A DNA stretch of 16,930 nucleotides, from the NCBI GenBank assembly GCA_048939995.1, contig JBHLOY010000029.1, positions 1 through 16,930 on the forward strand, read 5' to 3'. The first letter of the stretch is position 1, and each line of letters begins with the position of its first letter. The stretch is from Promethearchaeota archaeon (GTDB lineage: Archaea > Asgardarchaeota > Lokiarchaeia > Sigyniarchaeales > SOKP01). This document shows, in pieces, positions 1,152 through 15,563 of the stretch. A model generated the notes under the pieces. That model saw only the letters and a list, made by a program, of their open reading frames with translations, was not told the origin of the DNA and did not search any database. A program made the position numbers and the translations under genes.

Positions 1152-3623
1152 CTAAATATTTTGAACCTCTAAAATCTCTTTAATAAAAAGATTTGCGATT
1201 GATAGCCATTTTTCCTTAATATCTTGATTACAATAGGATTTTTCCATGAGTTCCTTACCAATTTGAAGGTTTTCTAATGCTTTTTCAAAGTATCTAAGCT
1301 CTTTATAACAAATACCTATTTTAACATGCGTTTGAAATTTGTACCACACATCTGGGTCTAATTCTAACGCCTTCTGAAACTCTTCAATTGCTTCAGTATA
1401 TTCTTCAAATGTCATCAGAATTTCTCCATAAGTATCATGAAATAGTCCTTTTTTAGGTTGAAGATCTATTAATTTTTTAATGATCTTAATTGCCTGTTCT
1501 CTCTGATTTAGATATTGTAACCAACTTGCCTTATGGTTTAGTAATTCATTATTGTCTGGATAAAGTTGAATTAATTCATCAATAATTTCAAGTCCTGACT
1601 CCACATTTCTCATTTTCTTAAATGCATATGCTTTTTTTAACTTAATCTCCACTTCATATTCAGGGAATAATTCTACCATAATATCAAGGAATTTTAAAGC
1701 ATCATCATATTCATTAAAATAAAGAAGTATTTTAATCTTGGAATTATATATTGACAAACTGGGATTTAATTCAATTGCTTTATTGATTGCTATAATTGCC
1801 TGTTCAAATTCTTTTATTTCAAGTAGAATAAGGCTTTTTAATTGGTACAGTATCGACTTATTAAAATTAGATGATTCAAAGACTAAATATTCATCGATAT
1901 CAACAGATCCATTATCATTTACATCAAATTCATTATAATGATAAATTATATTATAACCATATACTATACCCCTTATAGCACTGGATAAAGGTAAATTTGG
2001 ATATTTTAGACTCAATTTTTTAGAAAGTTGTAATGCTTTTTCGAAATTTCCTAAAGCCAAAAAACTGAGTATTCTGATAAAGGTTGTCGAAATATACACA
2101 TTCTCCTGATTTAATTGAGCCAAAGTAATTTCTTTTTCTATAAGATTTATCGCATCCAGATTTCTATTTGAGTAACAAAAAATAATTGCCTTGAAAATTA
2201 TAAGTTCGGGACTTTTTTGTTTGTCCTCAATATATTTATTTAGAATTTCTAAAACAGAAAGAAAATCTTTTTTATCCATTAAAGACTGTACCTTTTTGAG
2301 GATTGAATTGATTTTACTTTTATAAAGAGGATTTAAAAGTTCTAAAAGCTCAGGATTTACGAAATAAATTTTTTCTAAATTAGCTTGCGGTCCTGGATAT
2401 TGATCAAACCTTTGAACTTCCTGCCAAATTAACCCTTCGAGTTTATCATAAGTGTCTATTAATTTTTTTTCTCTTTCAACTTTGTAAGCTAGATCTCTGA
2501 TATATCCGGGCAAGAAATGATATAACGCATTTTTTAAGCCTTCATTAAATAGGGATCCACATATTTCATTCAAAATTTCTGTAATTGTAGATTCCATGGT
2601 GAATTTGAATGTTTCATCTGGTATTTCTTCAAATAATTTGTTTAAATAAGTAAATTTTGAAATTTGTTCTTCAATTACAGCATTGAGCATCTTTTCAATT
2701 TTTTCATTTGCTTGAAAATAATACGTCTCATCAAAATCTACCTTTAGTTTGAAAAACTTAACGGGATAAATATTTTTATCAACAATCTGAAGGATATGGA
2801 AATCAAGTATTAATCTTTCTATATTAAATTTTAAACAAAAGTCATTTGAATTAATATGGATAGGATATTGATTTGGATGATTCATCGCTAAGAATAATAA
2901 AACCTTATAGAAATCCTCTCTATTATCGAAGTTATGTTGAACAGTTTCAAATGGTAATCTTAATACGTTATAAAGAAATCTAAATCTAATTTTATTATCT
3001 GATATTTCATACTTTTTAAAGAATTGAAGCGTTTGGGATGTAAGTTCTTCAATCCTTTTACTTTCTTCTTGAAGAATTGATTGTCTATCTAAATCATATA
3101 ATTGAAGCATAGATGAATATTTTACCCTACCTAATTTAGTTATCCGATATTCATTATTATTTTTTTCTATGAAATTATTTTCTATTAGATTGTTTAAGGT
3201 TTTCGATAAGGAAGATTGACTGATTTTTACTGGAGAATCATCAATTGTAAAGTCAACCCATTTACAATAGTTATTATTATAAACCATCCAAAGGATCCAA
3301 TGTTCATAATTCCTAACTTTTATAATTGCTCTTGGTGGATAGTTTAACTCACGTTCTTTTTTTTTAATTTGAGATACTTCGTTAAATCTTCTTTTTCCAT
3401 CAAGAGTGATTTGATATTTATTGAATTCACTTCTAACAATATATCCTTGTTCTTTTAAGTTCTTTAAATATATTGATAATGTTGAGTGTTTAACCACTTT
3501 CTTGAAATCAGACCATCTACAAATTTTATTATTACTTAGTATCCAAAGTATGATTAATTCAAAGTTGATTTTGCCAACAATTGGTTTTAAAATCTCCTCA
3601 GGAGGATAATTTATGTGATTCAT
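1152..3623 (-). CDS. Protein with two tandem N-terminal winged-helix-like domains and C-terminal TPR repeats (putative regulator)
   Basis: Duplicated N-terminal unit (NYPP..ILW...NN..C.W.DF...S.LS..L.NL.E..[YF]I.....Y.IT..G) typical of wHTH. The C-terminus has TPR motifs such as HDTYGEILMTFEEYTEAIEEFQKALELDP and AIIAINKAIELNP. Confidence 0.8.
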   Translation of the reverse strand: MNHINYPPEEILKPIVGKINFELIILWILSNNKICRWSDFKKVVKHSTLSIYLKNLKEQGYIVRSEFNKYQITLDGKRRFNEVSQIKKKERELNYPPRAIIKVRNYEHWILWMVYNNNYCKWVDFTIDDSPVKISQSSLSKTLNNLIENNFIEKNNNEYRITKLGRVKYSSMLQLYDLDRQSILQEESKRIEELTSQTLQFFKKYEISDNKIRFRFLYNVLRLPFETVQHNFDNREDFYKVLLFLAMNHPNQYPIHINSNDFCLKFNIERLILDFHILQIVDKNIYPVKFFKLKVDFDETYYFQANEKIEKMLNAVIEEQISKFTYLNKLFEEIPDETFKFTMESTITEILNEICGSLFNEGLKNALYHFLPGYIRDLAYKVEREKKLIDTYDKLEGLIWQEVQRFDQYPGPQANLEKIYFVNPELLELLNPLYKSKINSILKKVQSLMDKKDFLSVLEILNKYIEDKQKSPELIIFKAIIFCYSNRNLDAINLIEKEITLAQLNQENVYISTTFIRILSFLALGNFEKALQLSKKLSLKYPNLPLSSAIRGIVYGYNIIYHYNEFDVNDNGSVDIDEYLVFESSNFNKSILYQLKSLILLEIKEFEQAIIAINKAIELNPSLSIYNSKIKILLYFNEYDDALKFLDIMVELFPEYEVEIKLKKAYAFKKMRNVESGLEIIDELIQLYPDNNELLNHKASWLQYLNQREQAIKIIKKLIDLQPKKGLFHDTYGEILMTFEEYTEAIEEFQKALELDPDVWYKFQTHVKIGICYKELRYFEKALENLQIGKELMEKSYCNQDIKEKWLSIANLFIKEILEVQNI

Positions 3624-3784
3624 TTTTATGGGTGCCTAACTAACTAATAATTATCTGTCTATTAATACCTTGTGGAATGAACTTCTATTGGACTTTTAAT
3701 TTAAATTTTAATCGAGTAAGAAATTTTAAAATATTAGGAGTGTATTTTAAGTTTATACAACAATTTTTAAAATATCTTATAATA

Positions 3785-4330
3785 ATGGATGAAATCAAGC
3801 TTGTCTTTAAAATTACTATTATAGGGGATGGAGGAGTAGGAAAAACCTCTTTGATCCGCAGATTTACAGAAAGTTCCTTTAACAAAGACTATATAAAAAC
3901 TATTGGTGCTCAATTTTCTGTTTATAATAAACAAATTGAGAATGTTAATATTCGATTGTTATTCTGGGATATAGCGGGTCAAGATGAATTTAGCTTTTTA
4001 AAACCTTCATTTTTCAAAAATAGTAATGCATCTATTATTGTATATAGTGTAGAAGAGACTAAACTTGGAGAAATTAGTTTCAATCATATTTTAAGTTGGT
4101 ATAATGACTTAAATCAGTATTGTGCTGATATTCCGACTGTAATTTTTGCCAATAAAATTGACTTAATAGATCAAAATGAATTAAATGATGCACCTATTCA
4201 AAAATTAGTCAAAGAACATAAATTTTTAGGGTTTTATTATACTAGCGCAAAAACAGGTCAAGGAGTCATAAACGCCTTTAATATAATAATTGATTCATTA
4301 TTTCAAAAATATAAATCTTTATCTGAGTAA
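3785..4330 (+). CDS. Rab-like Ras-superfamily small GTPase (181 aa; start probably 3785 rather than 3677)
   Basis: G1 GDGGVGKTS, G2 YIKTIG, G3 WDIAGQ, G4 NKID, G5 TSAK. The 36 codons upstream of ATG 3785 look like AT-rich intergenic DNA, and TTTATA at 3752-3757 fits a leaderless transcript. Confidence 0.93.
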   Translation: MDEIKLVFKITIIGDGGVGKTSLIRRFTESSFNKDYIKTIGAQFSVYNKQIENVNIRLLFWDIAGQDEFSFLKPSFFKNSNASIIVYSVEETKLGEISFNHILSWYNDLNQYCADIPTVIFANKIDLIDQNELNDAPIQKLVKEHKFLGFYYTSAKTGQGVINAFNIIIDSLFQKYKSLSE

Positions 4331-4444
4331 TCTAAAATATAGAATTCTGTAACTGGCTGTAGGGTAGTAACTCCAAAATAGATACAAAAGTCCATTCATA
4401 GTCCTCTTTATGAACCTAAATATATACTCATATATATACTAAAT

Positions 4445-4470
4445 ATTGAGGATAAAAAAATATCTTCAAT
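4445..4470. repeat. Imperfect inverted repeat ATTGAGGATA-N6-TATCTTCAAT upstream of the small ORF
   Basis: 10-bp arms with one mismatch (G.U pair if RNA), just downstream of the direct repeat ATATATACT at 4420-4428 and 4432-4440. Confidence 0.5.
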
Positions 4471-4520
4471 TGAGTCCAAAAAAATGATAAAACAAAAAAC
4501 AAAAAATGGAGTTGAAATAT

Positions 4521-4799
4521 ATGGTTCTATATAAGGAAGAATTAATATCGATTTTAGAAGAACTACCTGATGATATAGGATTAGTTGAAATTCAGAAGGT
4601 TATTTTACAGAAGGCATTACCATCGATACTAGAAGCACCAAAAAAAGAACAAAAAGAAATACAAAAGCTAGCTAAAAAAAGCCGTGAGTTAAGAAGCATT
4701 ATTAAAAAAGCACAATTGAATCCAAATTATCTTAGAGAGATTATTCCAATTAAAGAGGTTAGAAGAAATATAAATTATCGTAATTATGGAATGCTCTAA
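4521..4799 (+). CDS. Small helical hypothetical protein (92 aa from ATG 4521; 97 aa from 4506)
   Basis: GGAG at 4508-4511 precedes ATG 4521; amphipathic helical sequence; followed directly by T14. No recognisable family. Confidence 0.65.
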   Translation: MVLYKEELISILEELPDDIGLVEIQKVILQKALPSILEAPKKEQKEIQKLAKKSRELRSIIKKAQLNPNYLREIIPIKEVRRNINYRNYGML

Positions 4800-4929: not shown

Positions 4930-4949
4930 TATCAGATCAAGATCTGATA
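4930..4949. promoter_or_regulatory. Palindromic operator candidate TATCAGATC-AA-GATCTGATA
   Basis: Perfect 9-bp inverted repeat with a 2-nt spacer, about 27 nt downstream of TTTAAA (4898-4903) and 25 nt upstream of ATG 4975. Confidence 0.55.
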
Positions 4950-4974
4950 TAGAAATCCATGTTAGGTAAGAGAA

Positions 4975-5229
4975 ATGGTAGATTTTAACACTGTAAAATT
5001 AAAAGATCTTATAGAAATGAAGTTTGGAACATCTATGGCTCAAGAAATTATTACTGCAATCCAAACAAGCATTGATAATAAAGAATCAAAAGCTCAATTA
5101 AAAGAACGCCTTTGGCAAGATGTAATTAAACCTAAGTTAAGTCTTGCAGATGCAGAAACACTTGGAATTTGGTGTTTTCTAGTAGAGCTCAGTGTATTTA
5201 TTCCTGCACCGCCTGAATTAAATATCTAA
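4975..5229 (+). CDS. 84-aa peptide, putative RiPP precursor (charged helical leader plus hydrophobic Trp/Cys/Pro-containing C-terminal core)
   Basis: AGGT SD-like sequence upstream; lies 76 nt before the B12-rSAM-SPASM gene; residues about 1-61 are charged/helical and 62-84 read TLGIWCFLVELSVFIPAPPELNI. The ORF is well supported; the precursor role is an inference. Confidence 0.65.
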   Translation: MVDFNTVKLKDLIEMKFGTSMAQEIITAIQTSIDNKESKAQLKERLWQDVIKPKLSLADAETLGIWCFLVELSVFIPAPPELNI

Positions 5230-5231
5230 AA

Positions 5232-5252
5232 TTTTTCCTCTAATTTTTTTTT
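5232..5252 (+). terminator. T-rich terminator/attenuator between the peptide and radical SAM genes
   Basis: TTTTTCCTCTAATTTTTTTTT directly after the peptide stop codon (T9 at 5244-5252). Confidence 0.5.
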
Positions 5253-5305
5253 CTTAGTATTTAAAAATAACTTGATTAAAATCTAGATTATAAGGAGTAT
5301 TTTTA

Positions 5306-7546
5306 ATGAGTAATAGTAAGTTTATTGACATTTTGATGGTTTTCCCTTCTGGTGGATCACTTCATACATCTAATTTTAAATGGAACTTGGGATCAGCATA
5401 CATTATAGCATATCTACAAGAAAAAGGTTTTAAGGCGAAGCAATTTGTTTCGAATGAGTCATACAATGTAAAAGAATGTGTTGAAATAATTATGGGACAT
5501 CGACCTAAAGTCGTAGGATTCACAGTTTATGAAACAAATTATATGCAAAGTATTCTAATTTCTAAGGGATTAAAAAAGTATAATCCTAATTTAATTATAA
5601 TTTTTGGAGGTCCTACCCCAACTGTACAATCTAAAGAAATTCTAGAAGGTAATCTTAGCGTTGATATTTGTGTTAGAGGAGAGGGGGAAGAAATTACTCT
5701 AAAATTATTATCTCTATTCTCTGATAATAATTTTAATCTAGTTAAAATAAGTTTAGATAATATTAAAGGTATCACTTATAGGAAAGGGAGAAGAATTATC
5801 TCTAATCCTGATAGCAACATTTTGCTTTTAAATCGATTCACGAAAAATTATTTAGATAAATACCCATCGCCATATCTTTCCAGAGTTATTCCAATATCTG
5901 AAGCTTCTCAAACAGGTATCATCACTGCTAGAGGTTGCAATCAAAATTGTATATATTGTAATTGTGCTGTAATGAGCAAGAGAAACATATTCTGCCATTC
6001 AATAGAAAGAGTAATTGAAGAATTGATTTTCCTCAATGAATATAAAGGACATTCAGGACCTATTCCAATTCAAGATGATGGTTTTACAATTATACCATCA
6101 AGAGCACAAAGGATTTGTGAGAGTATAATTGACAATAAAATCGAATTGCCTTTAACTTGCATTACACGATGCGACAAAATTACAGAAGATCTATTAAATT
6201 TATTGAAGCAAGCAGGTTTTGTGTCCTTAGGTTTTTCTCTAGAAAGTGCGGTTCCAAGAGTTTTACGAACAATTGGTAAGGTAAATCCTCCAAAAAGTAA
6301 AGATTCAGATAACTTGGAGAAAGAAATTGAGTTTATTGAAAAGTTGAAACATATGACTGCATATGCGAAAAAGATTGGAATAAGAAACATTTTTGTCAGT
6401 GTAATGATTGGATTGCCTGGGGAGACTATTCAAGACGCTCAAAAAACTATAGATCTAATAAAACAATTAGATCTAAGCCTTTACCAACATAATTTTTTCC
6501 GTATTTTTACGGGAACCCCAATTTCTCAAAACTATAAAGAATATGGATATATCGTTAAACCAATTGGTAGTAAAAATAAAATAATGACTCATAACAGCTT
6601 TCCTTTTAATATATATGAAGTAAAAATGGCACCAAATTCTACTAGAGAAAAAGAGTATAAGGCAATTGACTTTAATAATCTCAAAATTGTATCGATGAAT
6701 ACTAATCGCATGATTCAAAAACCTTATTTTAGCAATATAATAATAAATTCTGACATTATAAAACGTTCGCTTGTAAATTGGATTCAAGAAAATCTTGTAA
6801 TCAATGGAAGGATTATCCAAATTTATTCCAATAAAAAAAAGTATGTGAAGTACCGCTCTAAAAATTTAGCTACGCTCTATAACGAACTAATACCAACATT
6901 ATATTATGAATGTTATTATTGGGACAACATCAAGGATTTTTCTTCTCTAAAGTCAGAGAAAATATCCTTACTTGGAGAACAAATCGGATTAACAATTAAT
7001 TTTAAGCACACAAATTCAGCCTTACGAAGTATCAATATGAATAATGAGAATCTGATGAATTCAATCTGTTTTGATGATTCAAAAACCGATACACAAGCTT
7101 TATACGATTTCTTGATGGAAATTTCGAATAATGAAAACTATTTTAAAGATTTACTAGATAGTAAACCATTGCCTTATTTTCGGAATCTCTGTAGATGGAC
7201 GAAAAATGTAGCAAATTGTCAAACATTGGATACTGCGATAATTACAAGTGATAATTCTATTAGAATATGTTGGCATTCTCCCCCCATCGGAAAAATAGGA
7301 AATTCAATGTATGATTTAATTCAGAAATTGCAAGATTTATCAAAAAGTGTAGCTGAAATTAGAAGCTGTATTGAATGTTCACAAAACGTGAATTGTGTAA
7401 AATGCAAATTTCCATACCCATTATCTTCTACTGAGTATTGTGAATTAAAAAAAAAATCAAACACAGATTATCCCGCAAAAATTATTAACTCTTTAAATAT
7501 ATTTAAAGATTTATTATATGATCCAATTACGATTATTGATTTTTAA
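5306..7546 (+). CDS. Cobalamin-binding (class B-type) radical SAM enzyme with a C-terminal SPASM-like Fe-S domain; putative peptide maturase
   Basis: AAGGAG SD at 5292-5297. B12-binding domain (LGSAYIIAYL, PKVVGFTVY, IIFGGPTPT, DICVRGEGE); TARGC211NQNC215IYC218; GFSLES and MIGLPGET motifs; C-terminal C629, C638, C655, C688xxC691x5C697xxC700 and C712. Confidence 0.9.
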   Translation: MSNSKFIDILMVFPSGGSLHTSNFKWNLGSAYIIAYLQEKGFKAKQFVSNESYNVKECVEIIMGHRPKVVGFTVYETNYMQSILISKGLKKYNPNLIIIFGGPTPTVQSKEILEGNLSVDICVRGEGEEITLKLLSLFSDNNFNLVKISLDNIKGITYRKGRRIISNPDSNILLLNRFTKNYLDKYPSPYLSRVIPISEASQTGIITARGCNQNCIYCNCAVMSKRNIFCHSIERVIEELIFLNEYKGHSGPIPIQDDGFTIIPSRAQRICESIIDNKIELPLTCITRCDKITEDLLNLLKQAGFVSLGFSLESAVPRVLRTIGKVNPPKSKDSDNLEKEIEFIEKLKHMTAYAKKIGIRNIFVSVMIGLPGETIQDAQKTIDLIKQLDLSLYQHNFFRIFTGTPISQNYKEYGYIVKPIGSKNKIMTHNSFPFNIYEVKMAPNSTREKEYKAIDFNNLKIVSMNTNRMIQKPYFSNIIINSDIIKRSLVNWIQENLVINGRIIQIYSNKKKYVKYRSKNLATLYNELIPTLYYECYYWDNIKDFSSLKSEKISLLGEQIGLTINFKHTNSALRSINMNNENLMNSICFDDSKTDTQALYDFLMEISNNENYFKDLLDSKPLPYFRNLCRWTKNVANCQTLDTAIITSDNSIRICWHSPPIGKIGNSMYDLIQKLQDLSKSVAEIRSCIECSQNVNCVKCKFPYPLSSTEYCELKKKSNTDYPAKIINSLNIFKDLLYDPITIIDF

Positions 7547-7558
7547 ATGGAGGTAAGT

Positions 7559-9598
7559 TTGCCCGATTCGAAATCTTTCGAACTATTAAATGCTGAACAG
7601 TTAATGTATAATGGTAAATTCCAGAAGGCTCGCAAAATTATTGAGACTTTAGAAAATAATGATGTAATAACCTCTAAAGATAAAATTTCTCTATTAATAT
7701 TAAAAGGTAGAATTTATAATTATTGTGAACAATATAATGAAGCAATAAAAATAGGTGAGCATGCTTACCAACTAAGTCAGGAACTGGGAGAGGTTTCAGA
7801 ATTAATAGATGCTCTTATTATTCAAGCACATATTGCATTTTTAAGGAAACTAGATAAGGCTTCCGATCTTATCCTAGAAGCAGAAAAATTATTCAATTCA
7901 GAGGTTGATAAATTATCTATTAATTTTCAGAGACTACAAGCGGACTTATTGCTTATGAAGGCAACTATTTATTTGTTTAAAAACGAGATCAATACCGCAT
8001 TAGAATTTGCGTTACAATGGATGGAAATAAGAAAAGAAACAGTTAATAAATTAGATATCTCGCGTGTATACTGCATTTTGAGTAATATATATTTCTATAA
8101 GGATCAAATTGAGATTGCTTTAGATTATGCTTTGAAAAGTCTAGCGTTAAATAAAGAATTATCTAATGAAATTGGTATTGCGACTTCTCTTTCACTAATT
8201 GGAGCAATTTATTATGGTGAAGGTGAATTCGATCAAGCTCTAAAATATTGCAAGCAGAGTTTGACCATTAATAGCATAAGTATTCGTACTAAACTAGATT
8301 CAACACAGATTTTAGGAACTATTTATCGAGAGAGAGGTCAATTAAATAGGGCTTTAAGATATTACAAGCGGACAATTTCATTAGCAGAAAAAGTAAATTG
8401 CATAGATGACATAATATATATTACATTGGGGATAGGAGCAACATATCGGATGAAAGGTGATTATGATCAATCTATGGAATATTTTAAACGTAGTTATTCT
8501 CTTTCCAAGAGTTTAAAATCTTTATTTGGGATTCATGGATCGCTATTTTATTTAATCCTGATTAATCTTGATAAGAATTCCCGTGAACAAGCCCAGAAAT
8601 ATCTTTCTGAGTTAGAGGAAATAGCAAATAAGACTGAAAATAAGATAATTAGCCAAGCATTCCTAATAGCAAAAGCATTAGTTTTGAAAAAAAGTAATCG
8701 AATTCGTAATCGTACAGAAGCAGAAATATATTTAAATCAAGTTGTAGAGGGAGATATTACTATCCCTCAACTACATCTTTTATCACTAGTTAATCTATGT
8801 GATCTCTACATTGAGGAATTATATCTGACAAATAAGGTGGAAATTCTTGATGATATAAATCCATTAATTAGCAAAGTCCTTGAAGTAGCGGAGAAAAGAC
8901 ATTCATTTATATGGTTAGCAGAAACAAAATTATTACAAGCAAAATTAGCACTAATTCAAATGAATTTTGACGAAGCTAAATTAATTTTAACCCAAGCACA
9001 ACAAATAGCGGAACTACATGGCCTAAATTTGCTAGCAATTAAAATTTCTAGTGAACATGATCAGTTACTGGAGCATTTGAATGTTTGGGATAATCTTAAG
9101 AGTAAGAATGCTCCTATGTCAGAACGTATAGAATTAGCCTCCTTTAAAGATGTTATAGATAGATTACAAGGAAAGAGTTCCTTTAAAGAATCAAAGTTGA
9201 CTCCTGAAACTCCTATACTTCTTTTAATAATCGGAGAAGGAGGACTTCCTGTATTTTCCCATTCCTTTACAGAAGAATTATCCTTCCAGAATGGAATTAT
9301 TAGTGGATTTCTTAGTGCATTTAATAGCTTTAGTAATGAGATATTCTCTAAAGGTCTTGATCGAGCTAAATTTGGGGATTATATATTAAATATTCAATCA
9401 GCAGGCTCTTTTTCATTATGCTATTTATTTAAAGGGCAAACTTATATTGCTAAGTTCAAATTAAGCCAATTTCAAAAAGAAATACAAAGTGATTCTGTTA
9501 TTTGGGCCGCTTTAAATAAATTTTTTCAATTGGGTAGAATGGCTGAACTAAATAGCATTCCTCAGCTTAATTCCCTTATTCAAAAAATATTTAAATGA
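7559..9598 (+). CDS. TPR-repeat protein with a C-terminal longin-like domain (start TTG 7559 or ATG 7547)
   Basis: TPR repeats (LSLIGAIYYGEGEFDQALKYCKQSL; LGTIYRERGQLNRALRYYKRTI; IGATYRMKGDYDQSMEYFKRSY). C-terminal LLLIIGEGGLPVFSHSF...ISGFLSAFNSFSNEIF resembles longin/profilin-like folds. GGAGGT at 7549-7554 precedes an in-frame TTG at 7559. Confidence 0.8.
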   Translation: MPDSKSFELLNAEQLMYNGKFQKARKIIETLENNDVITSKDKISLLILKGRIYNYCEQYNEAIKIGEHAYQLSQELGEVSELIDALIIQAHIAFLRKLDKASDLILEAEKLFNSEVDKLSINFQRLQADLLLMKATIYLFKNEINTALEFALQWMEIRKETVNKLDISRVYCILSNIYFYKDQIEIALDYALKSLALNKELSNEIGIATSLSLIGAIYYGEGEFDQALKYCKQSLTINSISIRTKLDSTQILGTIYRERGQLNRALRYYKRTISLAEKVNCIDDIIYITLGIGATYRMKGDYDQSMEYFKRSYSLSKSLKSLFGIHGSLFYLILINLDKNSREQAQKYLSELEEIANKTENKIISQAFLIAKALVLKKSNRIRNRTEAEIYLNQVVEGDITIPQLHLLSLVNLCDLYIEELYLTNKVEILDDINPLISKVLEVAEKRHSFIWLAETKLLQAKLALIQMNFDEAKLILTQAQQIAELHGLNLLAIKISSEHDQLLEHLNVWDNLKSKNAPMSERIELASFKDVIDRLQGKSSFKESKLTPETPILLLIIGEGGLPVFSHSFTEELSFQNGIISGFLSAFNSFSNEIFSKGLDRAKFGDYILNIQSAGSFSLCYLFKGQTYIAKFKLSQFQKEIQSDSVIWAALNKFFQLGRMAELNSIPQLNSLIQKIFK

Positions 9599-9667
9599 AT
9601 TTCTTTAAATTTAGTAATCTTAACATAATTTTTTTAAGTGATTAAGGCATAAGAAAAATTGATCTGG

Positions 9668-10021
9668 ATGAAATTTGGGGAAAAAATTGAATGGAAAAAA
9701 TGTAATAATTGTGGTTTTTTACAATATATCTCCCATCTTAGATGCTTAAAATGTAAATTTTATGAATTTACTCAAATAAAACCCTTAAAAATCTGTAAAT
9801 TATTGACTTATACAATTTTGACATCTCCTCCTTTAGAGTTTAGAAATCAAAAATCCTATGCGCTTGGAGTTGTAGAGTTTGAGAACAAAACAAAAGCTCT
9901 TGGACAAATTACTACTGAAGAGAATCTCTATCCTGGAATGGTTTTGAAGCCTGTGCATAGAAAGATCTGTGATAATCTCGATGGGAAGGAAGTTTATAAT
10001 TATGTTTTTGATCCTGCGTAA
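9668..10021 (+). CDS. DUF35-family Zn-ribbon/OB-fold protein (acyl-CoA associated)
   Basis: KKCNNCG...RCLKC zinc ribbon followed by LLTYT...YALGVVEFE...ALGQ...LYPGMVLKPV OB fold. Start is ATG 9668 or TTG 9659. Confidence 0.85.
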   Translation: MKFGEKIEWKKCNNCGFLQYISHLRCLKCKFYEFTQIKPLKICKLLTYTILTSPPLEFRNQKSYALGVVEFENKTKALGQITTEENLYPGMVLKPVHRKICDNLDGKEVYNYVFDPA

Positions 10022-10101
10022 ACATAAAATTGAATAATCTATTTTTAAAAACTATTAAGTAGAATTTGAATTAAAATATCAATGATAAAAAGGCTCAAAT
10101 T

Positions 10102-11778
10102 ATGTTTTCTAAAGATGAACTCGATAAAATTAAAAGCGAACGGAAAGATTGGGAAGAAAGAATCTTATCTAAATATATAAAAATAGGAGAAACAAAAAAG
10201 AAATTTGAAACGCCTTCAGGAATCCCGTTAAAACAGATATATGGACCAGATGATATTGAAAATATAAGATATTTAAATGATCTTGGATTTCCAGGGAGTC
10301 CGCCTTTTACTAGAGGAGTTTATCCTAATATGTATCGAGGAAGAGTATGGACTATGCGGCAGTATGCAGGATTTGCAGATGCTACCAAAACTAATGAAAG
10401 ATTTAAATATCTAATATCACAAGGTCAGATGGGGTTATCTATCGCTTTTGATTTACCGACTCAGATGGGTTATAATTCTACTAATCAGTTATGCTTAGGA
10501 GAAGTTGGAAGGGTTGGGGTAACTGTCAATTCGCTAAAAGATTTTGAACAGGTCTTCGAAGGAATCCCATTAGACAAAGTATCAACAAGTATGACAATTA
10601 ATGCCCCCGCTTCTATTTTATTAGCAATGTATATTGCAGTTGGAGAAAAGCAAGGAATATCACCAGAAAAGTTAATCGGAACAGTTCAAAATGATATTTT
10701 AAAGGAATATGTTGCTAGAGGTACGTATATATTCCCACCAAAACCCTCATTGAGACTTACAGCAGATGTTATTGAATATTGTTCAGAAAATATGCCTCGT
10801 TTCAATACCATCTCTATTAGTGGATATCACATGCGAGAAGCAGGATGTAATGCAATACAAGAAATAGCATTTACAATAGCTGATGGAATCGCCTATATAG
10901 AAGAAGTTTTAAATAGAGGAATCAATATAGATGATTTCGCTTCCAGGTTATCTTTCTTCTTTACAACTCACAATCATTTTTTCGAGGAAATAGCAAAATT
11001 AAGAGCAGTTAGAAGGTTGTGGGCAAATATTATGAAAACTAGATTTAATGCTCAAAATCCTGATTCTTTGCGATTGAGGTTTCATACCCAGACTGCAGGG
11101 GTTACTTTAACTGCTCAACAACCAAACGTAAATATCATTCGAGTAACTCTTCAAGCTTTAGCAGCAGTTTTAGGGGGTACCCAATCTCTACATGCCTGCG
11201 GTGCCGATGAAGCTTTATGTCTTCCCACTGAAGATTCTGTTCGTTTATCATTAAGAACTCAACAAGTAATAGCATATGAATCAGGGGCCACTGACGTTGT
11301 AGATCCACTCGGGGGTTCATTTTATATCGAATATTTAACTAATGAATTAGAAAAGAAAGCTCTTGAATATATTAAGGTAATTGATGAGATGGGAGGAATA
11401 ACAGTTGCGGTCGAAAAAGGATTTATTCAACAAGAAATTCAAAATAATGCATATACTGAACAAAAGAAAATAGATGAGTGCCTAGATTTAAGAGTAGGTG
11501 TAAATACGTTCTGTACTGAAAAGGAAATAAAAATTGATACTTTTAAATTCGATTCAGAATTTGAACAAAAAACACTGCAATCCTTAAGTGAATTAAAATC
11601 GATCAGAGATAATGAAGTTGTCAATAAAACATTAAAAGAATTAAAAGAAGTAGCAAAATCTTCAAAAAATATCATGCCGATTATGATAGAAGCTGTTAAA
11701 ACTTACGCTACTATTGAAGAGATAAGTAATGTATTAAGAGAGGTTTTTGGAGAATATCATAGTCCTCAAATATTTTAA
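10102..11778 (+). CDS. mcmA1: Methylmalonyl-CoA mutase, N-terminal/large (substrate-binding) subunit of a split enzyme
   Basis: PFTRGVYPNMY, WTMRQYAGF, GLSIAFDLPTQMG, GTVQNDILKEYVARGTY, ISGYHMREAG, HTQTAG, GGTQSLH, DPLGGS; no C-terminal DxHxxG B12-binding domain. Confidence 0.93.
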   Translation: MFSKDELDKIKSERKDWEERILSKYIKIGETKKKFETPSGIPLKQIYGPDDIENIRYLNDLGFPGSPPFTRGVYPNMYRGRVWTMRQYAGFADATKTNERFKYLISQGQMGLSIAFDLPTQMGYNSTNQLCLGEVGRVGVTVNSLKDFEQVFEGIPLDKVSTSMTINAPASILLAMYIAVGEKQGISPEKLIGTVQNDILKEYVARGTYIFPPKPSLRLTADVIEYCSENMPRFNTISISGYHMREAGCNAIQEIAFTIADGIAYIEEVLNRGINIDDFASRLSFFFTTHNHFFEEIAKLRAVRRLWANIMKTRFNAQNPDSLRLRFHTQTAGVTLTAQQPNVNIIRVTLQALAAVLGGTQSLHACGADEALCLPTEDSVRLSLRTQQVIAYESGATDVVDPLGGSFYIEYLTNELEKKALEYIKVIDEMGGITVAVEKGFIQQEIQNNAYTEQKKIDECLDLRVGVNTFCTEKEIKIDTFKFDSEFEQKTLQSLSELKSIRDNEVVNKTLKELKEVAKSSKNIMPIMIEAVKTYATIEEISNVLREVFGEYHSPQIF

Positions 11779-11903
11779 TTCTTATACCCAATAACTTCTC
11801 TATTTTCAACTTTTTTAATTATTTTTCAAATCTTACAATAATGTAAAAATATATATTACTAAGGATAATCTATAAAATCACAATCAAATAGGCTAATTTA
11901 ATC

Positions 11904-13346
11904 TTAAATTTCTATTTTTTTTAATTGCCTTTTTTTAAATTTTGAAATTTTAGGTAATAAATGTATGAATTCCAAAGGATCCTTAAATATAGGCACTTTT
12001 TTCTCTGCTAAAATCCTAGAAATACGAATATGTTCTTCTGGCGTATTAGCAGGTTGAATTATTGGAAATAAGGGTTTTTTATATTTGTGTCCCAAGGTAA
12101 GTGCTTCAATCATATTTTTTTCATAATCCTTATTAGGATTTATAAAAAATTCATAGCTAAAATACCAGCTGGGGAAATCCATTATGAGAGCATCCATGTT
12201 TTTATCTGATAAAGCTATATCAATAATTTTCTTAATTGATTCACTGTAGTTCAATTGAGCTGCTACATCTAATGGATTTCTTGGACTAGTACCATTGATA
12301 AAGAGTTCATTATTCAGTTCCTCCTGAACTTTTTGACTAAATTCTGGAACCTTCATACCAGCAGCTTCAATTAAATCAACTAGAACGACACCATAACCCC
12401 CGCTTATGCTAAAAACTGCAATGTTTTCTAGAACATTACATCCATAAAAATCAACTATCCGAGCTGCATTTAATAATTCTTCTAAGCTATCAACTTCAAT
12501 GAGATTATATTGCTTAAATAAGGAATGCCATATACGTGTATTTCCTGCCACAGAAGCCGTATGTGTTTTAGCAGCAAATTCTCCTCTTTCTGATTTTCCA
12601 CCCTTCAAAATTACAATTGGTTTCTTGTTATTATTTAGGATGTTTCTTAAAGTTTGAACTCTATTTTGCTTAATTCCCTCAACATAACTTAAAATGATAT
12701 CTGTTTCAGAGTCATTACTCAAGAAATGAAGAAGATCAACAAAGTCTATATCTGCTCCATTACCAAAAGAAAATACCTTGGAAAAATTTATTCCATATTC
12801 TTTTGCAGAATAAATAGCAATATTACATATTCCCCCTGATTGAGCAATAAATCCAATATTTCCTTTTGTTGTTGGAAATTTACTTCGCCATGTTATTCCT
12901 AACTTTGGATAGAAAAGCCCCATGCCATTTGGTCCTAATATTCTTACCTTATTTTTCGCTCTTTTTATGAGTTCTTTTTCTAGTGCAATCCCTTCTATAG
13001 TACCTGAGTCCGAAAATTCTGCTGTAAAAATAGTAACCAATTTTACAGCTTTTTCAACACAATCATCTATGATATTCAATACAAGACTTGCGGGAACTGC
13101 TATAAAAGCAAAATCTAAATCTCCAGGAACATCTTTTACACTCTCATATATATTTTCTTTAGGAAAATCAGGAATTTCATTTAAAGTAGGATGAATTGCA
13201 TAAAGTTTTCCTTTAAAGTTCTCTTGATGGTTCTTTAAAAAAAAAAAATTTCTTCTTTGCGAAGGTCCAATGATAGCCATCGAATTGATATCATTAATAA
13301 ACGAGATATCTTTTACTGTTAAGTCAAAGGGCTCTAATGGTGCCAT
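11904..13346 (-). CDS. Acyl-CoA synthetase (NDP-forming) alpha-subunit family, CoA-binding protein
   Basis: CoA-binding domain (MAIIGPS, DLDFAFIAVPA), ILGPNGMG, IAQSGG, SFGNGAD, LKGGKS, the phospho-His motif AKTHTAS, ISGGYG and NPLD; no ATP-grasp beta domain. Confidence 0.88.
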   Translation of the reverse strand: MAPLEPFDLTVKDISFINDINSMAIIGPSQRRNFFFLKNHQENFKGKLYAIHPTLNEIPDFPKENIYESVKDVPGDLDFAFIAVPASLVLNIIDDCVEKAVKLVTIFTAEFSDSGTIEGIALEKELIKRAKNKVRILGPNGMGLFYPKLGITWRSKFPTTKGNIGFIAQSGGICNIAIYSAKEYGINFSKVFSFGNGADIDFVDLLHFLSNDSETDIILSYVEGIKQNRVQTLRNILNNNKKPIVILKGGKSERGEFAAKTHTASVAGNTRIWHSLFKQYNLIEVDSLEELLNAARIVDFYGCNVLENIAVFSISGGYGVVLVDLIEAAGMKVPEFSQKVQEELNNELFINGTSPRNPLDVAAQLNYSESIKKIIDIALSDKNMDALIMDFPSWYFSYEFFINPNKDYEKNMIEALTLGHKYKKPLFPIIQPANTPEEHIRISRILAEKKVPIFKDPLEFIHLLPKISKFKKRQLKKIEI

Positions 13347-13440: not shown

Positions 13441-13447
13441 TTAAATA
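13440..13447 (+). promoter_or_regulatory. TATA box (TTTAAATA) of the CPBP/ABC operon
   Basis: Matches the archaeal TATA consensus and lies between the two operator copies. Confidence 0.55.
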
Positions 13448-13473
13448 TGAAACTTAACTATTTTCACATAAAG

Positions 13474-13492
13474 TACTTTGTCATACAAAGTA
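13474..13492. promoter_or_regulatory. Operator copy 2: TACTTTGT-CAT-ACAAAGTA
   Basis: Perfect 8-bp inverted repeat with a 3-nt spacer; near-identical to copy 1 and 52 bp downstream of it. Confidence 0.78.
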
Positions 13493-13536
13493 GAAAATTT
13501 TGTTTAATTTCTCAAAAAAATGAAAAAATAGAAATA

Positions 13537-14706
13537 ATGAATATGGTTGATTTAAATCTAGATAGTAGGAAACTAAGAATAAAGATTAAAAACCCAAAAC
13601 TTAAATTTCTAAAATTACTGACTCCGATATTAGCCCTAATAGCCAGTATTAATGTTCAATTAATATTTTCTTACATATTTTTATTCATTATTCCATTCAT
13701 CAATCTAATTACTCCATTAAACCAAGTATCTGCTTCATTATTAATTTTGTTCTTAAGTCAAATTTGTGGATCCATAATCGTTTACTTTATTTTCCTACGA
13801 TTTTTCCATATTCAAAAAGACTTTTCCGATCCAATGAGAGGTTCAAACTTATCATGTAATATATCACTAATTTCTATGGGCTACTGTATATGTGCATTGA
13901 TTTCTATCTTTCTCACATTTATATTTACGTTGTTAAATTTAAAACCTCAAACTGGATATGATGCAATTTTACCAGAAACTCAATATCTAACAGATACATT
14001 TACAATAATATTATATTTTACTACCCCAACTTTGGGTGCTGGAGTTTTTGAAGAATTGTCTTTTCGGCGAATGGCAATCCCACTCTTAGAAAAGCATGGA
14101 TTCAGTCCATTTTCAGCAGTTTTAACAACAGCTTCGTTTTTTAGTATTTCTCATATTCCCAATGATTTGCTTAATGGCAATCTATCAGGAGGCATTATTC
14201 ACAGTCTCGTAGTATTTTTTATTGGATTGGTTGCGGGATTAATGTATATTTTTAGTCGAAAGGTAATTTATTCAATAATAATTCATGCCACATTGAACTT
14301 TTTATCCTTTGCTGGATATCTAATCGCGTTAATTGGTGTTCCAATGCTTATGATTATCAATTCTTCCTTAAGCTATGCATTAATAATTTTGGGAGGTATA
14401 ATTCTGATCTATTTCCTATCAAAATTCATTTACAAGCCAAATTGGTTATGGCGAATAAAATTAAGAGAGAAGTCGAGATTTAGCGGAAAATTATCTATTT
14501 TAGGTTTTTTAATAGTGGGTACTATTTACATCGTGATTATAACCTTAATTCAGTTTATAGCCCCATTCTTAATTTCAATTGGTGCAACAGTAGAGAACAC
14601 TCTTTTAGTAATTATTAGTTTATTTCTGGTATCTCTTTTAGCTATCCTATGGATTGGAAATAAAAAAAATCAAATTATTTTTGATAAAAGAAAAAAAATA
14701 GAATAA
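13537..14706 (+). CDS. CPBP (CAAX protease/bacteriocin-processing, Abi) family intramembrane glutamic protease
   Basis: EELSFRR (EExxxR), FSISH (FxxxH), HATLN (HxxxN) and many TM segments. Start is more likely 13537 or 13543, because ATG 13447 overlaps the TATA box and that extension runs through operator copy 2. Confidence 0.88.
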   Translation: MNMVDLNLDSRKLRIKIKNPKLKFLKLLTPILALIASINVQLIFSYIFLFIIPFINLITPLNQVSASLLILFLSQICGSIIVYFIFLRFFHIQKDFSDPMRGSNLSCNISLISMGYCICALISIFLTFIFTLLNLKPQTGYDAILPETQYLTDTFTIILYFTTPTLGAGVFEELSFRRMAIPLLEKHGFSPFSAVLTTASFFSISHIPNDLLNGNLSGGIIHSLVVFFIGLVAGLMYIFSRKVIYSIIIHATLNFLSFAGYLIALIGVPMLMIINSSLSYALIILGGIILIYFLSKFIYKPNWLWRIKLREKSRFSGKLSILGFLIVGTIYIVIITLIQFIAPFLISIGATVENTLLVIISLFLVSLLAILWIGNKKNQIIFDKRKKIE

Positions 14707-14722
14707 TTATGAGGTGTGAAAA

Positions 14723-15556
14723 ATAAAAGCAAAATATGCAATCGAGGCTCAAAATCTAACAAAATATTTTGGTCCTCTTTCAGCAGTGAAAGAATTAAAT
14801 TTAAAGATATCACATGGAAAGACCTATGGGTTATTGGGACCCAATGGAGCAGGAAAAACAACTACAATAAGAATTCTCAATGCGATTATATCTAAATCTT
14901 CTGGAAATGCTTTAATTGGTGGATTTGATATAGTCAAGCAAAGCAATGAAGTAAAAAGAATTTGTGGGTTTTTACCCGAGACTCCAGGATTATATTCAAA
15001 ACTAACAGCACGAGAATTCTTGGAATTTATTGCGGAATTATATTATTTACCTAAAGAGGTAATTTCAGCCCGAATCGACGAACTGTTAGGAATTTTCGAT
15101 TTAGAAGGTAGAGAAAACGATCTCTTAGAGAGTTATTCAAGGGGAATGAAGCAAAAGGTGTGTTTATGTGCTGCTCTAATTCAGGATCCAGAAATTATTT
15201 TTTTAGATGAACCAACATCAAATTTAGATCCTGCTACTGCTCGAATGGTAAAAGATCTTATAAAAGAACTTGCAAAAAAAGCGGATAAAACTGTGTTCAT
15301 TTGTACTCATCTACTAGATATTGCAGAAGAATTATGTGATATAATTGGTATTATTGTTGATGGAGAATTAAAAATTGAAGGCACTCCAAAAGAGATAATT
15401 GAGTTTGTAGGGGCTAAGAATTTAGAAGAAGCATATTTAAAAGTTACTGGAGCGTCTCATATTGAAGACTTACTAGCTTGGAGACATGAAAATTCGAATA
15501 ATGAGAAGAAACAGAAAAAGCGAAGTAGGAAAGAAAGGAAAACCAAAAAGAGGTAA
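14723..15556 (+). CDS. ABC transporter ATP-binding protein (ABC-2/export type); N-terminus extends upstream of the track's GTG at 14786
   Basis: Walker A GPNGAGKTT, signature YSRGM, Walker B IIFLDEPT, H-loop CTH. The in-frame upstream sequence IKAKYAIEAQNLTKYFGPLSAV is the canonical first strands of the domain; GAGGTG SD at 14711-14716. Confidence 0.9.
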   Translation: MKAKYAIEAQNLTKYFGPLSAVKELNLKISHGKTYGLLGPNGAGKTTTIRILNAIISKSSGNALIGGFDIVKQSNEVKRICGFLPETPGLYSKLTAREFLEFIAELYYLPKEVISARIDELLGIFDLEGRENDLLESYSRGMKQKVCLCAALIQDPEIIFLDEPTSNLDPATARMVKDLIKELAKKADKTVFICTHLLDIAEELCDIIGIIVDGELKIEGTPKEIIEFVGAKNLEEAYLKVTGASHIEDLLAWRHENSNNEKKQKKRSRKERKTKKR

Positions 15557-15563
15557 GTTTAAT

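What the first reader, a model, noticed from the sequence alone, without database searches (positions are those of the whole stretch)
4930..7546. Candidate Asgard-archaeal RiPP system: short precursor peptide plus B12-dependent radical SAM/SPASM-like maturase
Seen: an 84-aa ORF with its own SD-like site and upstream palindrome, then a T-tract, then 76 nt later a B12-binding radical SAM gene with an extra Cys-rich C-terminal domain. Established: a precursor directly upstream of its maturase is the usual RiPP layout; class B radical SAM enzymes methylate peptides (PoyC, TsrM) and SPASM-domain enzymes commonly act on peptides. Inference: this is a two-gene modified-peptide pathway in a Lokiarchaeia-like genome. 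I know of no characterised RiPP pathway from that lineage.
Basis: partly seen in the sequence, partly recalled or inferred. Interest (0 to 1): 0.88.

Follow-up and report, generated by a model that had tools for sequence, protein, structure and literature searches.

The report
Lokiarchaeal peptide plus B12 radical-SAM maturase
An 84-residue peptide gene and the B12-dependent radical SAM enzyme gene beside it form a conserved pair found in some Lokiarchaeia and some bacteria, which looks like an undescribed family of enzyme-modified peptides and is the first such candidate in Asgard archaea, though no chemistry has been shown.

Summary

- **The pair.** The 84-aa ORF (4975-5229) belongs to a small-protein family of about 100 clusters at 50% identity. 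Members share a helical leader with a near-invariant Gly and carry a hypervariable hydrophobic C-terminal tail.
- **Co-occurrence.** In 135 genomes of the window's family, the peptide profile hits exactly the 27 genomes that carry the 746-aa enzyme, nearly always beside it. A control small ORF (orf97) occurs in 74 of the 135.
- **Metagenomes.** In 68 usable metagenome loci, 57 have a family peptide within 400 nt upstream on the same strand.
- **Bacterial relatives.** Homologues at 40-45% identity keep the same peptide. Another clade sits in clusters of several B12 radical SAM genes with an NHLP-like precursor.
- **The enzyme.** It is a class B radical SAM (B12 domain, CX3CX2C) fused to a half that resembles a degenerate radical SAM barrel plus SPASM domain, with 8 invariant Cys. 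The SPASM likeness is structural only; sequence models do not match.
- **Distribution.** The gene is accessory, found in 30 of 400 Asgard genomes. In Lokiarchaeia a TPR gene travels with the pair.
- **Open points.** The chemistry is untested (methylation is favoured), and no protease or exporter is linked.

I rate it a new variant of a known kind.

The parts
4930..4949 (.). Perfect 9+9 bp palindrome (TATCAGATC-AA-GATCTGATA) upstream of the peptide gene. It may be an operator, but it is not conserved in the closest relative.
   Evidence: I20; one search shows it is absent in L003.
4975..5229 (+). Precursor-like peptide gene, 84 aa. Residues about 1-60 form the conserved leader (L-I-x-x-x-F-G motif); the hydrophobic C-terminal tail ends ...SVFIPAPPELNI.
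   Evidence: family alignments; dN/dS; co-occurrence with the enzyme; about 100 family clusters.
5244..5252 (+). T9 run 15 nt after the peptide stop codon; likely archaeal terminator or attenuator between precursor and enzyme.
5306..7546 (+). 746-aa B12-binding radical SAM enzyme with a C-terminal pseudo-radical-SAM/SPASM-like half; putative maturase.
5384..5695 (+). Cobalamin-binding domain (residues 27-130).
   Evidence: PF02310, 56.8 bits; fold matches to CysS, TokK, TsrM, MgmA.
5918..6460 (+). Radical SAM core (residues 205-385), with the invariant CX3CX2C at C211, C215 and C218 (nt 5936-5959).
6713..7165 (+). Alpha/beta domain (residues about 470-620) without a cluster motif. It aligns structurally to the barrel of SPASM-type radical SAM enzymes.
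7190..7441 (+). Eight-Cys region (C629, 638, 655, 688, 691, 697, 700, 712); putative site of two auxiliary [4Fe-4S] clusters.
   Evidence: invariance; fold neighbours; weak TIGR04085 match in 3 of 26 members.
7547..9598 (+). 683-aa TPR protein that starts at the base after the enzyme's stop codon; partner specific to the Lokiarchaeial clade.
   Evidence: order peptide-TPR-enzyme in G267; 13 of 16 Loki-clade metagenome loci.

Best explanation
The 84-aa product of 4975-5229 is most likely a ribosomally made substrate (leader plus C-terminal core) of the adjacent 746-aa cobalamin-dependent radical SAM enzyme.

**Shown by the data**
- The two genes form a strictly co-occurring, adjacent pair across Lokiarchaeia and several bacterial clades.
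- The peptide has a conserved leader and a hypervariable hydrophobic tail rich in beta-branched residues (Val, Ile, Thr), and is sometimes duplicated in tandem.
- The enzyme has a class B radical SAM N-terminal half and a C-terminal half with 8 invariant Cys whose fold resembles a cluster-less radical SAM barrel plus SPASM domain.

**Inferred**
- The leader docks on the enzyme, perhaps on the C-terminal half as in SuiB- or CteB-type maturases, or through the TPR partner.
- The radical SAM/cobalamin site modifies unactivated carbons in the tail.
- The 8-Cys region holds two auxiliary [4Fe-4S] clusters for electron transfer.

**Chemistry (my odds, given that the peptide is the substrate)**
- C-methylation of Val, Ile or Thr-type residues, about 0.45.
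- A C-C or other cross-link, about 0.25.
- Something else, the remainder.

The T-run between the genes would give more precursor than enzyme transcript. In Lokiarchaeia the downstream TPR protein probably binds the peptide, either as a scaffold or as a receptor of the modified C-terminus. No protease or exporter is linked, so the product may stay as a modified small protein.
For: **Co-occurrence**
- the peptide profile hits 27 of 135 family genomes. These are exactly the enzyme-bearing ones, on the enzyme's contig in 26 of them (in G270 the peptide is split across two contig ends).
- a control small ORF family hits 74 of 135, including genomes without the enzyme.
- an upstream ORF is present in 27 distinct loci.
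- 57 of 68 metagenome loci have a family peptide within 400 nt upstream on the same strand, 3 more have it elsewhere in the locus, and several of the 8 'none' loci show family-like or NHLP/Nif11-like small ORFs by eye.

**Bacterial relatives**
- homologues at 44-46% identity, at least one of them (P0103) in a bacterial genome, keep a homologous peptide.
- other members sit in clusters of several B12 radical SAM genes with an NHLP-like precursor that has an ...AGAGG junction.

**Precursor behaviour**
- Tandem precursor copies occur in L012, L044, G203, L099 and L105.

**Enzyme**
- Searches support class B radical SAM.
- Searches support the SPASM-like half.
- PMC12257519 documents that B12 radical SAM enzymes both methylate and cross-link RiPP peptides.

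**Accessory status**
- patchy distribution, 30 of 400 genomes and 4 of 41 in the window's own genus, as expected for an accessory pathway.
Against: - No biochemical data exist.
- No protease, exporter or immunity gene is conserved with the pair.
- The leader is long, about 60 aa, and may be a folded domain in its own right. Leader-like repeats occur in larger proteins such as P0191.
- The peptide matches no known RiPP leader family.
- The enzyme is unusually well conserved for a natural-product enzyme, 50-70% identity within the Loki clade.
- Sequence models of SPASM do not match.
- The enzyme is far below the cut-off of every curated RiPP methyltransferase model (ApyD 104 against 750; TIGR03975 53 against 282).
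- The peptide profile was built from sequences of the same genomes in which it was then counted. Only its absence elsewhere is independent evidence.
Confidence: 0.75

Rival explanations
1. The small ORF is an accessory partner of the enzyme (chaperone, recognition or regulatory subunit, like PqqD), not its substrate. The enzyme would then act on a lipid, cofactor or other small molecule, as archaeal B12 radical SAM enzymes do on tetraether lipids.
For: The leader is long and conserved. No protease or exporter is linked. B12 radical SAM enzymes modify archaeal lipids (PMC11214058). The weak NCBIfam hits include lipid and hopanoid enzymes.
Against: The C-terminal tail is hypervariable and the gene is duplicated in tandem, which fits a substrate rather than a subunit. 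In a sister clade the same slot is filled by an NHLP-like precursor. No lipid or cofactor genes are conserved nearby. All lipid-enzyme matches are far below their cut-offs.
Confidence: 0.1
2. The enzyme post-translationally modifies a large protein, such as the adjacent TPR protein or the Ras-like GTPase, in the way the glutamine C-methyltransferase modifies methyl-coenzyme M reductase. The small ORF would be a bystander or adaptor.
For: MgmA is among the structural neighbours (rank 12). The TPR gene is adjacent in nearly all Lokiarchaeial loci.
Against: Bacterial clades lack the TPR and the GTPase but keep the peptide (TPR in 1 of 29). The module of wHTH-TPR regulator, Ras-like GTPase and two small ORFs (orfA, orf97) exists in many genomes without the enzyme. 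The TPR protein belongs to a family with 8 or more copies per genome.
Confidence: 0.06
3. The peptide is the substrate, but the product is not a secreted natural product. It would stay in the cell as a modified small protein or peptide-derived cofactor or signal that works with the TPR protein (Lokiarchaeia) or a sensor kinase (bacteria).
For: No leader protease or transporter is conserved. TPR domains typically bind C-terminal peptide motifs (general knowledge). Sensor histidine kinases lie next to the pair in L060, L061, L071 and about 5 of 29 metagenome loci. The enzyme is strongly conserved.
Against: The patchy distribution and hypervariable tails resemble diversifying natural products. 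Proteases and exporters of RiPP pathways are often encoded elsewhere. A CPBP protease and an ABC transporter lie 6 kb downstream in this window, though their linkage is not conserved.
Confidence: 0.35

Closest known systems
Proteusin-type RiPP pathways with cobalamin-dependent radical SAM C-methyltransferases (PoyB/PoyC; NCBIfam TIGR03975), which act on long NHLP/Nif11-type leaders
   Same: A long helical leader, a core rich in Val, Ile, Thr and Gly, and a class B radical SAM enzyme encoded beside the precursor. A sister clade of this enzyme family sits in clusters of several B12 radical SAM genes with an NHLP-like precursor.
   Different: The enzyme scores 53 bits against a cut-off of 282 for TIGR03975. 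The window's leader matches no NHLP or Nif11 model. The enzyme carries an extra 300-aa SPASM-like half. The Loki clusters hold no epimerase, protease or other tailoring genes.
SPASM-domain RiPP maturases (SuiB, CteB, PqqE, SkfB) and anSME
   Same: Eight Cys in an order and spacing that parallel the anSME set. These enzymes are the top structural neighbours of the C-terminal half: anSMEcpe Z 7.2, 238 residues aligned, rmsd 5.2; SuiB, ChlB, TigE, PqqE, SkfB and CteB Z 5.9-6.6.
   Different: The SPASM-like region does not follow the active barrel directly; a cluster-less alpha/beta domain lies between. Pfam PF13186 and hhalign do not match. The active core is class B, not the SPASM subgroup. RadicalSAM.org treats these as separate subgroups (PMC9477430).
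TIGR04150 'pseudo-rSAM protein' of the GG-Bacteroidales peptide system
   Same: Clusters with this name are the nearest structural neighbours in the ESM Atlas for residues 457-720 (TM 0.46-0.57). They are radical SAM/SPASM-like folds without the SAM cluster motif, and they belong to a peptide-modification system.
   Different: The resemblance is structural only. No NCBIfam hit to TIGR04150 was found. Here the domain is fused to an active B12 radical SAM enzyme rather than standing alone.
PbsB, the B12 radical SAM cross-linker of biphenomycin-like RiPPs, and ApyD
   Same: Class B radical SAM enzymes that act on RiPP precursors. ApyD is the best NCBIfam hit.
   Different: ApyD scores 104 bits against a cut-off of 750. 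The precursors, partner enzymes (MNIO, arginase) and domain architecture all differ.

Membership tests
Class B (cobalamin-dependent) radical SAM enzymes | N-terminal B12-binding domain | tested here: met
   PF02310 scores 56.8 bits against a cut-off of 32.1, residues 27-130. The GGP[T] and GEGE-type motifs are invariant or nearly so.
Class B (cobalamin-dependent) radical SAM enzymes | Radical SAM core with CX3CX2C | tested here: met
   PF04055 scores 58.4 bits against 29.5. C211, C215 and C218 are invariant in 33 sequences.
Class B (cobalamin-dependent) radical SAM enzymes | Fold like solved class B enzymes | tested here: met
   Model pLDDT 89. Foldseek top hits are CysS, TokK, TsrM, MgmA and OxsB, E 1e-12 to 4e-17.
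Class B (cobalamin-dependent) radical SAM enzymes | Binds cobalamin and cleaves SAM | not testable with these tools
   Needs purified, reconstituted protein.
SPASM domain (PF13186 / TIGR04085) | Match to the curated sequence model | tested here: not met
   No PF13186 hit at E<=1 in 26 members. The six-frame own-genome scan finds 6 other SPASM matches (5 above the cut-off) but not this gene. hhalign against the genome's own SPASM domains gives probability 0.7%. TIGR04085 matches weakly in 3 of 26 members, best E 0.006.
SPASM domain (PF13186 / TIGR04085) | Seven or eight conserved Cys C-terminal to the barrel, for two auxiliary [4Fe-4S] clusters | tested here: met
   Eight invariant Cys with the pattern C-x8-C-x16-C-x32-C-x2-C-x5-C-x2-C-x11-C. 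The definition is from PMC9477430. Cluster binding itself is untested.
SPASM domain (PF13186 / TIGR04085) | SPASM/twitch fold | tested here: inconclusive
   The ten best of 48,161 chains are all SPASM/twitch-type radical SAM enzymes or MoaA, but Z is only 5.2-7.2. Foldseek E is 0.03-0.1. Atlas TM is 0.46-0.58. Model pLDDT is 74, and below 50 around C688-C700.
RiPP pathway (precursor plus maturase) | Small precursor gene adjacent to and co-occurring with the enzyme | tested here: met
RiPP pathway (precursor plus maturase) | Conserved leader, variable core | tested here: met
   Alignments A2 and A9. About 95 small family representatives show diverse tails.
RiPP pathway (precursor plus maturase) | Enzyme-dependent modification of the peptide | not testable with these tools
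   Needs co-expression and mass spectrometry.
RiPP pathway (precursor plus maturase) | Leader protease and/or exporter in the cluster | tested here: not met
   None is conserved in the flanks of 14 genome loci or in the bacterial loci. The CPBP protease and ABC genes at 13447-16928 are not syntenic elsewhere. This feature is not obligatory for RiPPs.
NHLP / Nif11 leader peptides | Match to TIGR04509, NF038399 or Nif11-type models and a GG cleavage motif | tested here: not met
   There is no hit for the window peptide or its Loki and bacterial relatives. Only the precursors of the multi-radical-SAM sister clade match, and those are sub-threshold (E 4e-4 to 0.01).
RiPP C-methyltransferase TIGR03975 / ApyD NF050148 | Score above the curated cut-off | tested here: not met
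   53.2 against 281.85, and 103.8 against 750.

The most novel reading that the evidence does not exclude
This would be a previously undescribed RiPP class present in both archaea and bacteria. Two features would define it: a new leader family (about 100 clusters at 50% identity), and a maturase that fuses an active B12 radical SAM enzyme to a degenerate radical SAM barrel plus SPASM-like module with two clusters. In Lokiarchaeia, including the cultured Lokiarchaeum ossiferum, it is attached to a TPR protein and lies downstream of a module made of a Ras-like GTPase, two small ORFs and a wHTH-TPR regulator. The modified C-terminal tail might therefore be an intracellular ligand or signal rather than an antibiotic. 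That would make it the first Asgard RiPP and a possible link between peptide modification and the eukaryote-like signalling proteins of these archaea.
Probability: 0.45. Interest if true: 0.82.

Novelty: new variant of a known kind. Interest (0 to 1): 0.72.

Why it matters
- No RiPP pathway from Asgard archaea turned up in the searched literature. This family gives a concrete three-gene target, and it is also present in the cultured Lokiarchaeum ossiferum.
- The enzyme joins two radical SAM subgroups that are normally separate (cobalamin-dependent and SPASM-type). It could therefore carry out new chemistry or show how auxiliary clusters serve a B12 enzyme.
- The precursor family, with its hypervariable tails rich in beta-branched residues (Val, Ile, Thr), offers a ready set of natural substrates.
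- Its link to TPR proteins in archaea and sensor kinases in some bacteria hints at a signalling role.

Tried and rejected
1. **Housekeeping enzyme.** Rejected. Only 30 of 400 Asgard genomes carry it, and 4 of 41 in the window's own genus; several nearly complete genomes lack it.
2. **Orphan peptide.** The word-based search found only the peptide itself. Locus-by-locus ORF reading and profile searches then revealed the family.
3. **orf97 (4506-4799) as a second precursor.** Rejected. Its family occurs in 74 of 135 genomes, many without the enzyme.
4. **Ras-like GTPase and wHTH-TPR regulator as part of the pathway.** Not supported. The same module exists without the enzyme and is absent from the bacterial loci.
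5. **SPASM by sequence.** Negative in Pfam, in the PDB profile search and in hhalign.
6. **Stand-alone form of the C-terminal half.** None found among shorter proteins, apart from one truncated fragment.
7. **Known family for the peptide.** None in Pfam or NCBIfam, and the ESM Atlas was uninformative.
8. **Palindrome as a conserved operator.** Not conserved in L003.
9. **Linked CPBP protease and ABC transporter.** Not syntenic in relatives.
Full report
**Anatomy**

The window has about 28% G+C. Its ORFs are as follows.

| Coordinates | Strand | Product |
|---|---|---|
| 1152-3623 | - | wHTH-TPR protein |
| 3677-4330 | + | Ras-family GTPase |
| 4506-4799 | + | 97-aa ORF (orf97) |
| 4975-5229 | + | 84-aa ORF, the peptide |
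| 5306-7546 | + | 746-aa B12-binding radical SAM protein |
| 7547-9598 | + | 683-aa TPR protein, starting at the base after the enzyme's stop |
| 9659-10021 | + | OB-fold protein |
| 10102-11778 | + | methylmalonyl-CoA mutase large subunit |

- The 9+9 bp palindrome lies at 4930-4949.
- A purine-rich stretch precedes each ATG.
- The gap between the peptide and enzyme genes is 76 nt.
- A T9 run lies at 5244-5252.

The + strand has only three separate T>=9 runs. Two of them directly follow orf97 and the peptide gene, which fits archaeal termination or attenuation after each small gene.

**Is the small ORF a gene, and is it tied to the enzyme?**

A word-based search found no relative of the peptide. 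The enzyme, in contrast, has hundreds of full-length relatives at 40-70% identity. I read the DNA upstream of the enzyme gene in 14 genome loci and then in all loci from a phylum-wide genome search.
- Every locus with enough upstream sequence carries a same-strand ORF of 62-100 aa, except G267, where the TPR gene lies between (see below).
- That ORF ends 50-215 nt before the enzyme gene.

The products align (A2).
- The N-terminal part carries a recurring L/I-x-x-x-aromatic-G motif and helical periodicity.
- A variable middle follows.
- The tail is hydrophobic and commonly ends ...HWVTVG, ...GFITVG, ...YETIGR or ...IFVSIG.
- The window and its closest relative share a variant ending ...VFIP(A/S)PP(E/D)LNI.

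Pairwise dN/dS is 0.26-0.72 where divergence suffices. The peptide diverges faster than its neighbours: against L003 it is 58% identical, compared with 70% for the enzyme, 74% for the TPR protein and 83% for orf97.

**Co-occurrence**

- The enzyme is accessory. It is in 30 of 400 genomes of the phylum, 4 of 41 in the window's genus and 22 of 54 in a sister genus, and it is present in a 6-Mb single-contig genome that matches Lokiarchaeum ossiferum.
- A profile of the peptide family hits 27 of 135 genomes of the family. These are exactly the enzyme-bearing genomes, on the enzyme's contig in 26 of them (in G270 the peptide is split across two contig ends).
- The profile was built from those genomes, so the positives follow by construction. 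The independent result is the absence of hits in the other 108 genomes.
- As a control, a profile of the orf97 family hits 74 of 135 genomes, many without the enzyme.
- In genomes without the enzyme, the block made of the wHTH-TPR protein, the Ras-like GTPase, a conserved small ORF I call orfA, and orf97 is intact, but the peptide, the enzyme and the adjacent TPR gene are missing.
- In G267 the order is peptide, TPR, enzyme.

The mobile unit in Lokiarchaeia is therefore peptide plus enzyme plus TPR. It is added next to a separate, more widespread GTPase module.

**Beyond Lokiarchaeia**

- P0103 (44% identical) lies in a 9.1-Mb genome labelled Aminicenantes, among bacterial genes (Obg, RsfS, a sigma-54 activator, ThiI). 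A 78-aa ORF lies 50 nt upstream. Its product aligns with the archaeal leaders and ends ...VTMIIPSF.
- L061, L070 and L071 show the same layout, with tails ...ISHVVPTV...IGVGIYSVP... and ...GFVIAVP. Three of these four loci have a sensor histidine kinase next to the pair.
- A third clade (P0105, P0110, P0118) sits in clusters of five to seven radical SAM genes, most with B12 domains. Each of two of these clusters holds two paralogues of this enzyme with the full 8-Cys half.
- Those clusters surround a 69-aa ORF with sub-threshold NHLP-type matches, an ...AGAGG junction and a Thr/Val/Ser/Gly-rich core.
- A midpoint-rooted tree separates a large Lokiarchaeial clade from the bacterial clade with kinases and from the multi-radical-SAM clades.
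- In 79 metagenome loci found with the enzyme alignment, 68 have at least 400 nt upstream. Of these, 57 carry a family peptide (profile E<1e-3) on the same strand within 400 nt, 3 carry one elsewhere in the locus, and 8 have none.
- Among those 8, three have family-like ORFs by eye, two have NHLP/Nif11-like ORFs, and two are the most distant homologues at 31-32% identity.
- The TPR gene lies downstream of the enzyme gene in 13 of 16 Loki-clade loci and is present in only 1 of 29 others.
- An exhaustive profile search of 1.84 billion representatives finds 102 proteins at E<=0.001, about 95 of them 56-117 aa long. They share the leader and have very diverse tails rich in beta-branched residues (Val, Ile, Thr), such as ...YHFVIVG...YGFIIP...THVVPTS...TAIVVPAF and ...YWVWIVFGIP....

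**The enzyme**

- The N-terminal 430-480 residues are a typical class B radical SAM enzyme: both Pfam domains are above cut-off, the CX3CX2C is invariant, the model is confident (pLDDT 89), and the top fold matches are CysS, TokK, TsrM, MgmA and OxsB.
- All curated functional models score far below their cut-offs.
- The C-terminal 300 residues match nothing by sequence.
- Folded alone (pLDDT 74), the ten best of 48,161 PDB representatives are all SPASM/twitch-type radical SAM enzymes or MoaA. The best is anSMEcpe with Z 7.2, 238 residues aligned and rmsd 5.2; the others are BtrN, SuiB, ChlB, TigE, PqqE, SkfB, MoaA, CteB and BlsE. These alignments span both the barrel and the SPASM part.
- ESM Atlas structural neighbours of residues 457-720 are 'TIGR04150 pseudo-rSAM' clusters and SPASM-bearing radical SAM clusters, with TM 0.46-0.58.
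- These scores are middling. The evidence lies in the agreement between methods and the eight invariant Cys in an anSME-like order.
- Sequence-level SPASM membership fails, apart from weak TIGR04085 hits in 3 of 26 members.

I therefore describe the protein as an active B12 radical SAM enzyme fused to a cluster-motif-less barrel plus a SPASM-like 8-Cys module. RadicalSAM.org treats the B12-binding and SPASM/twitch groups as separate subgroups (PMC9477430). I found no stand-alone form of the C-terminal half.

**Mechanism**

Shown:
- a strictly linked peptide-enzyme pair;
- leader/core behaviour of the peptide;
- tandem precursor copies;
- replacement of this peptide by an NHLP-like precursor in a sister clade;
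- class B radical SAM features of the enzyme.

Inferred:
- The leader-guided tail is modified at unactivated carbons.
- I favour C-methylation, because the tails are rich in Val, Ile and Thr and because sister clusters look like proteusin pathways.
- Cross-linking is a real alternative, since PbsB shows that B12 radical SAM enzymes can form C-C links (PMC12257519) and the extra clusters resemble those of cross-linking SPASM enzymes.
- Cys is not conserved in the tails. The window has C67 but L003 has none, so thioether formation is unlikely to be the general chemistry.

No protease or exporter is linked, so a retained modified small protein that binds the TPR partner is a serious possibility.

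**Comparison and novelty**

The pair works like a RiPP precursor and maturase. It is not a member of any curated RiPP enzyme or leader family that I tested. No paper in the searched library describes an Asgard RiPP or this architecture. I rate it a new variant of a known kind.

**Limits**

- Everything here is computational.
- The structural matches are moderate.
- NCBI organism labels of the metagenome-assembled genomes (Thor, Odin, Hod) disagree with the narrow distribution in the genome search, so I give the range only as Lokiarchaeia-related plus some bacteria.
- The look-up of encoding contigs closed before I could sample distant precursor clusters.

Noticed in passing
window 1152-4799: The block of wHTH-TPR regulator (minus strand), Ras-family GTPase, a small ORF I call orfA (motif KRALKRWKQS; absent from this window) and orf97 (4506-4799) is a conserved module in its own right. 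The orf97 family is in 74 of 135 genomes of the family, many without the radical SAM gene. Its function is unknown.
   Followed up: partly
L004:4049-4261, L012:4420-4662, L006:5157-5408, L038:4282-4533: Several orfA and orf97 homologues carry a single in-frame stop codon at otherwise conserved positions. In one, the stop aligns with the conserved Trp of KRWKQ. These could be pseudogenes, sequencing errors or recoding; I did not resolve which.
   Followed up: no
window 7547-9598 and G000 contigs C38, C17: The 683-aa TPR protein belongs to a strongly expanded paralogous family, with 8 or more matches per genome in many Lokiarchaeial genomes and tandem arrays such as G200:C33. Its last 190 or so residues match no Pfam family.
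   Followed up: partly
window 13447-16928: A CPBP/Rce1-like intramembrane protease gene is followed by an ABC transporter ATPase and a 481-aa ORF with no Pfam match that runs off the window end. Such sets are often linked to peptide processing or immunity, but this one is not syntenic with the radical SAM gene in relatives.
   Followed up: partly
window 9659-13346: An OB-fold (ChsH2-like) protein, the methylmalonyl-CoA mutase large subunit and an ADP-forming acyl-CoA synthetase-like gene lie here. The mutase shows that the organism uses cobalamin.
   Followed up: no
P0191, P0129, P0167, P0208, P0225: The leader-like motif occurs as 3-7 tandem repeats in a few larger, apparently secreted proteins. 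The leader may derive from, or mimic, a general small helical repeat. P0129 may be a spurious Cys-pattern match.
   Followed up: no
L062, L063, L072, L091: These metagenome clusters hold five to seven radical SAM genes, most with B12 domains, around a 69-aa NHLP-like precursor ending ...SAVSVSSI or ...SIGISISSI. They look like uncharacterised proteusin-type pathways.
   Followed up: partly
A2 members from the sister genus, e.g. L005-L008: Many leaders of the sister-genus clade carry paired CX3C-type motifs (EC.QEC ... C..QC), with weak hits to the Tim10/DDP zinc-finger model in 4 members. The window's peptide lacks them.
   Followed up: no
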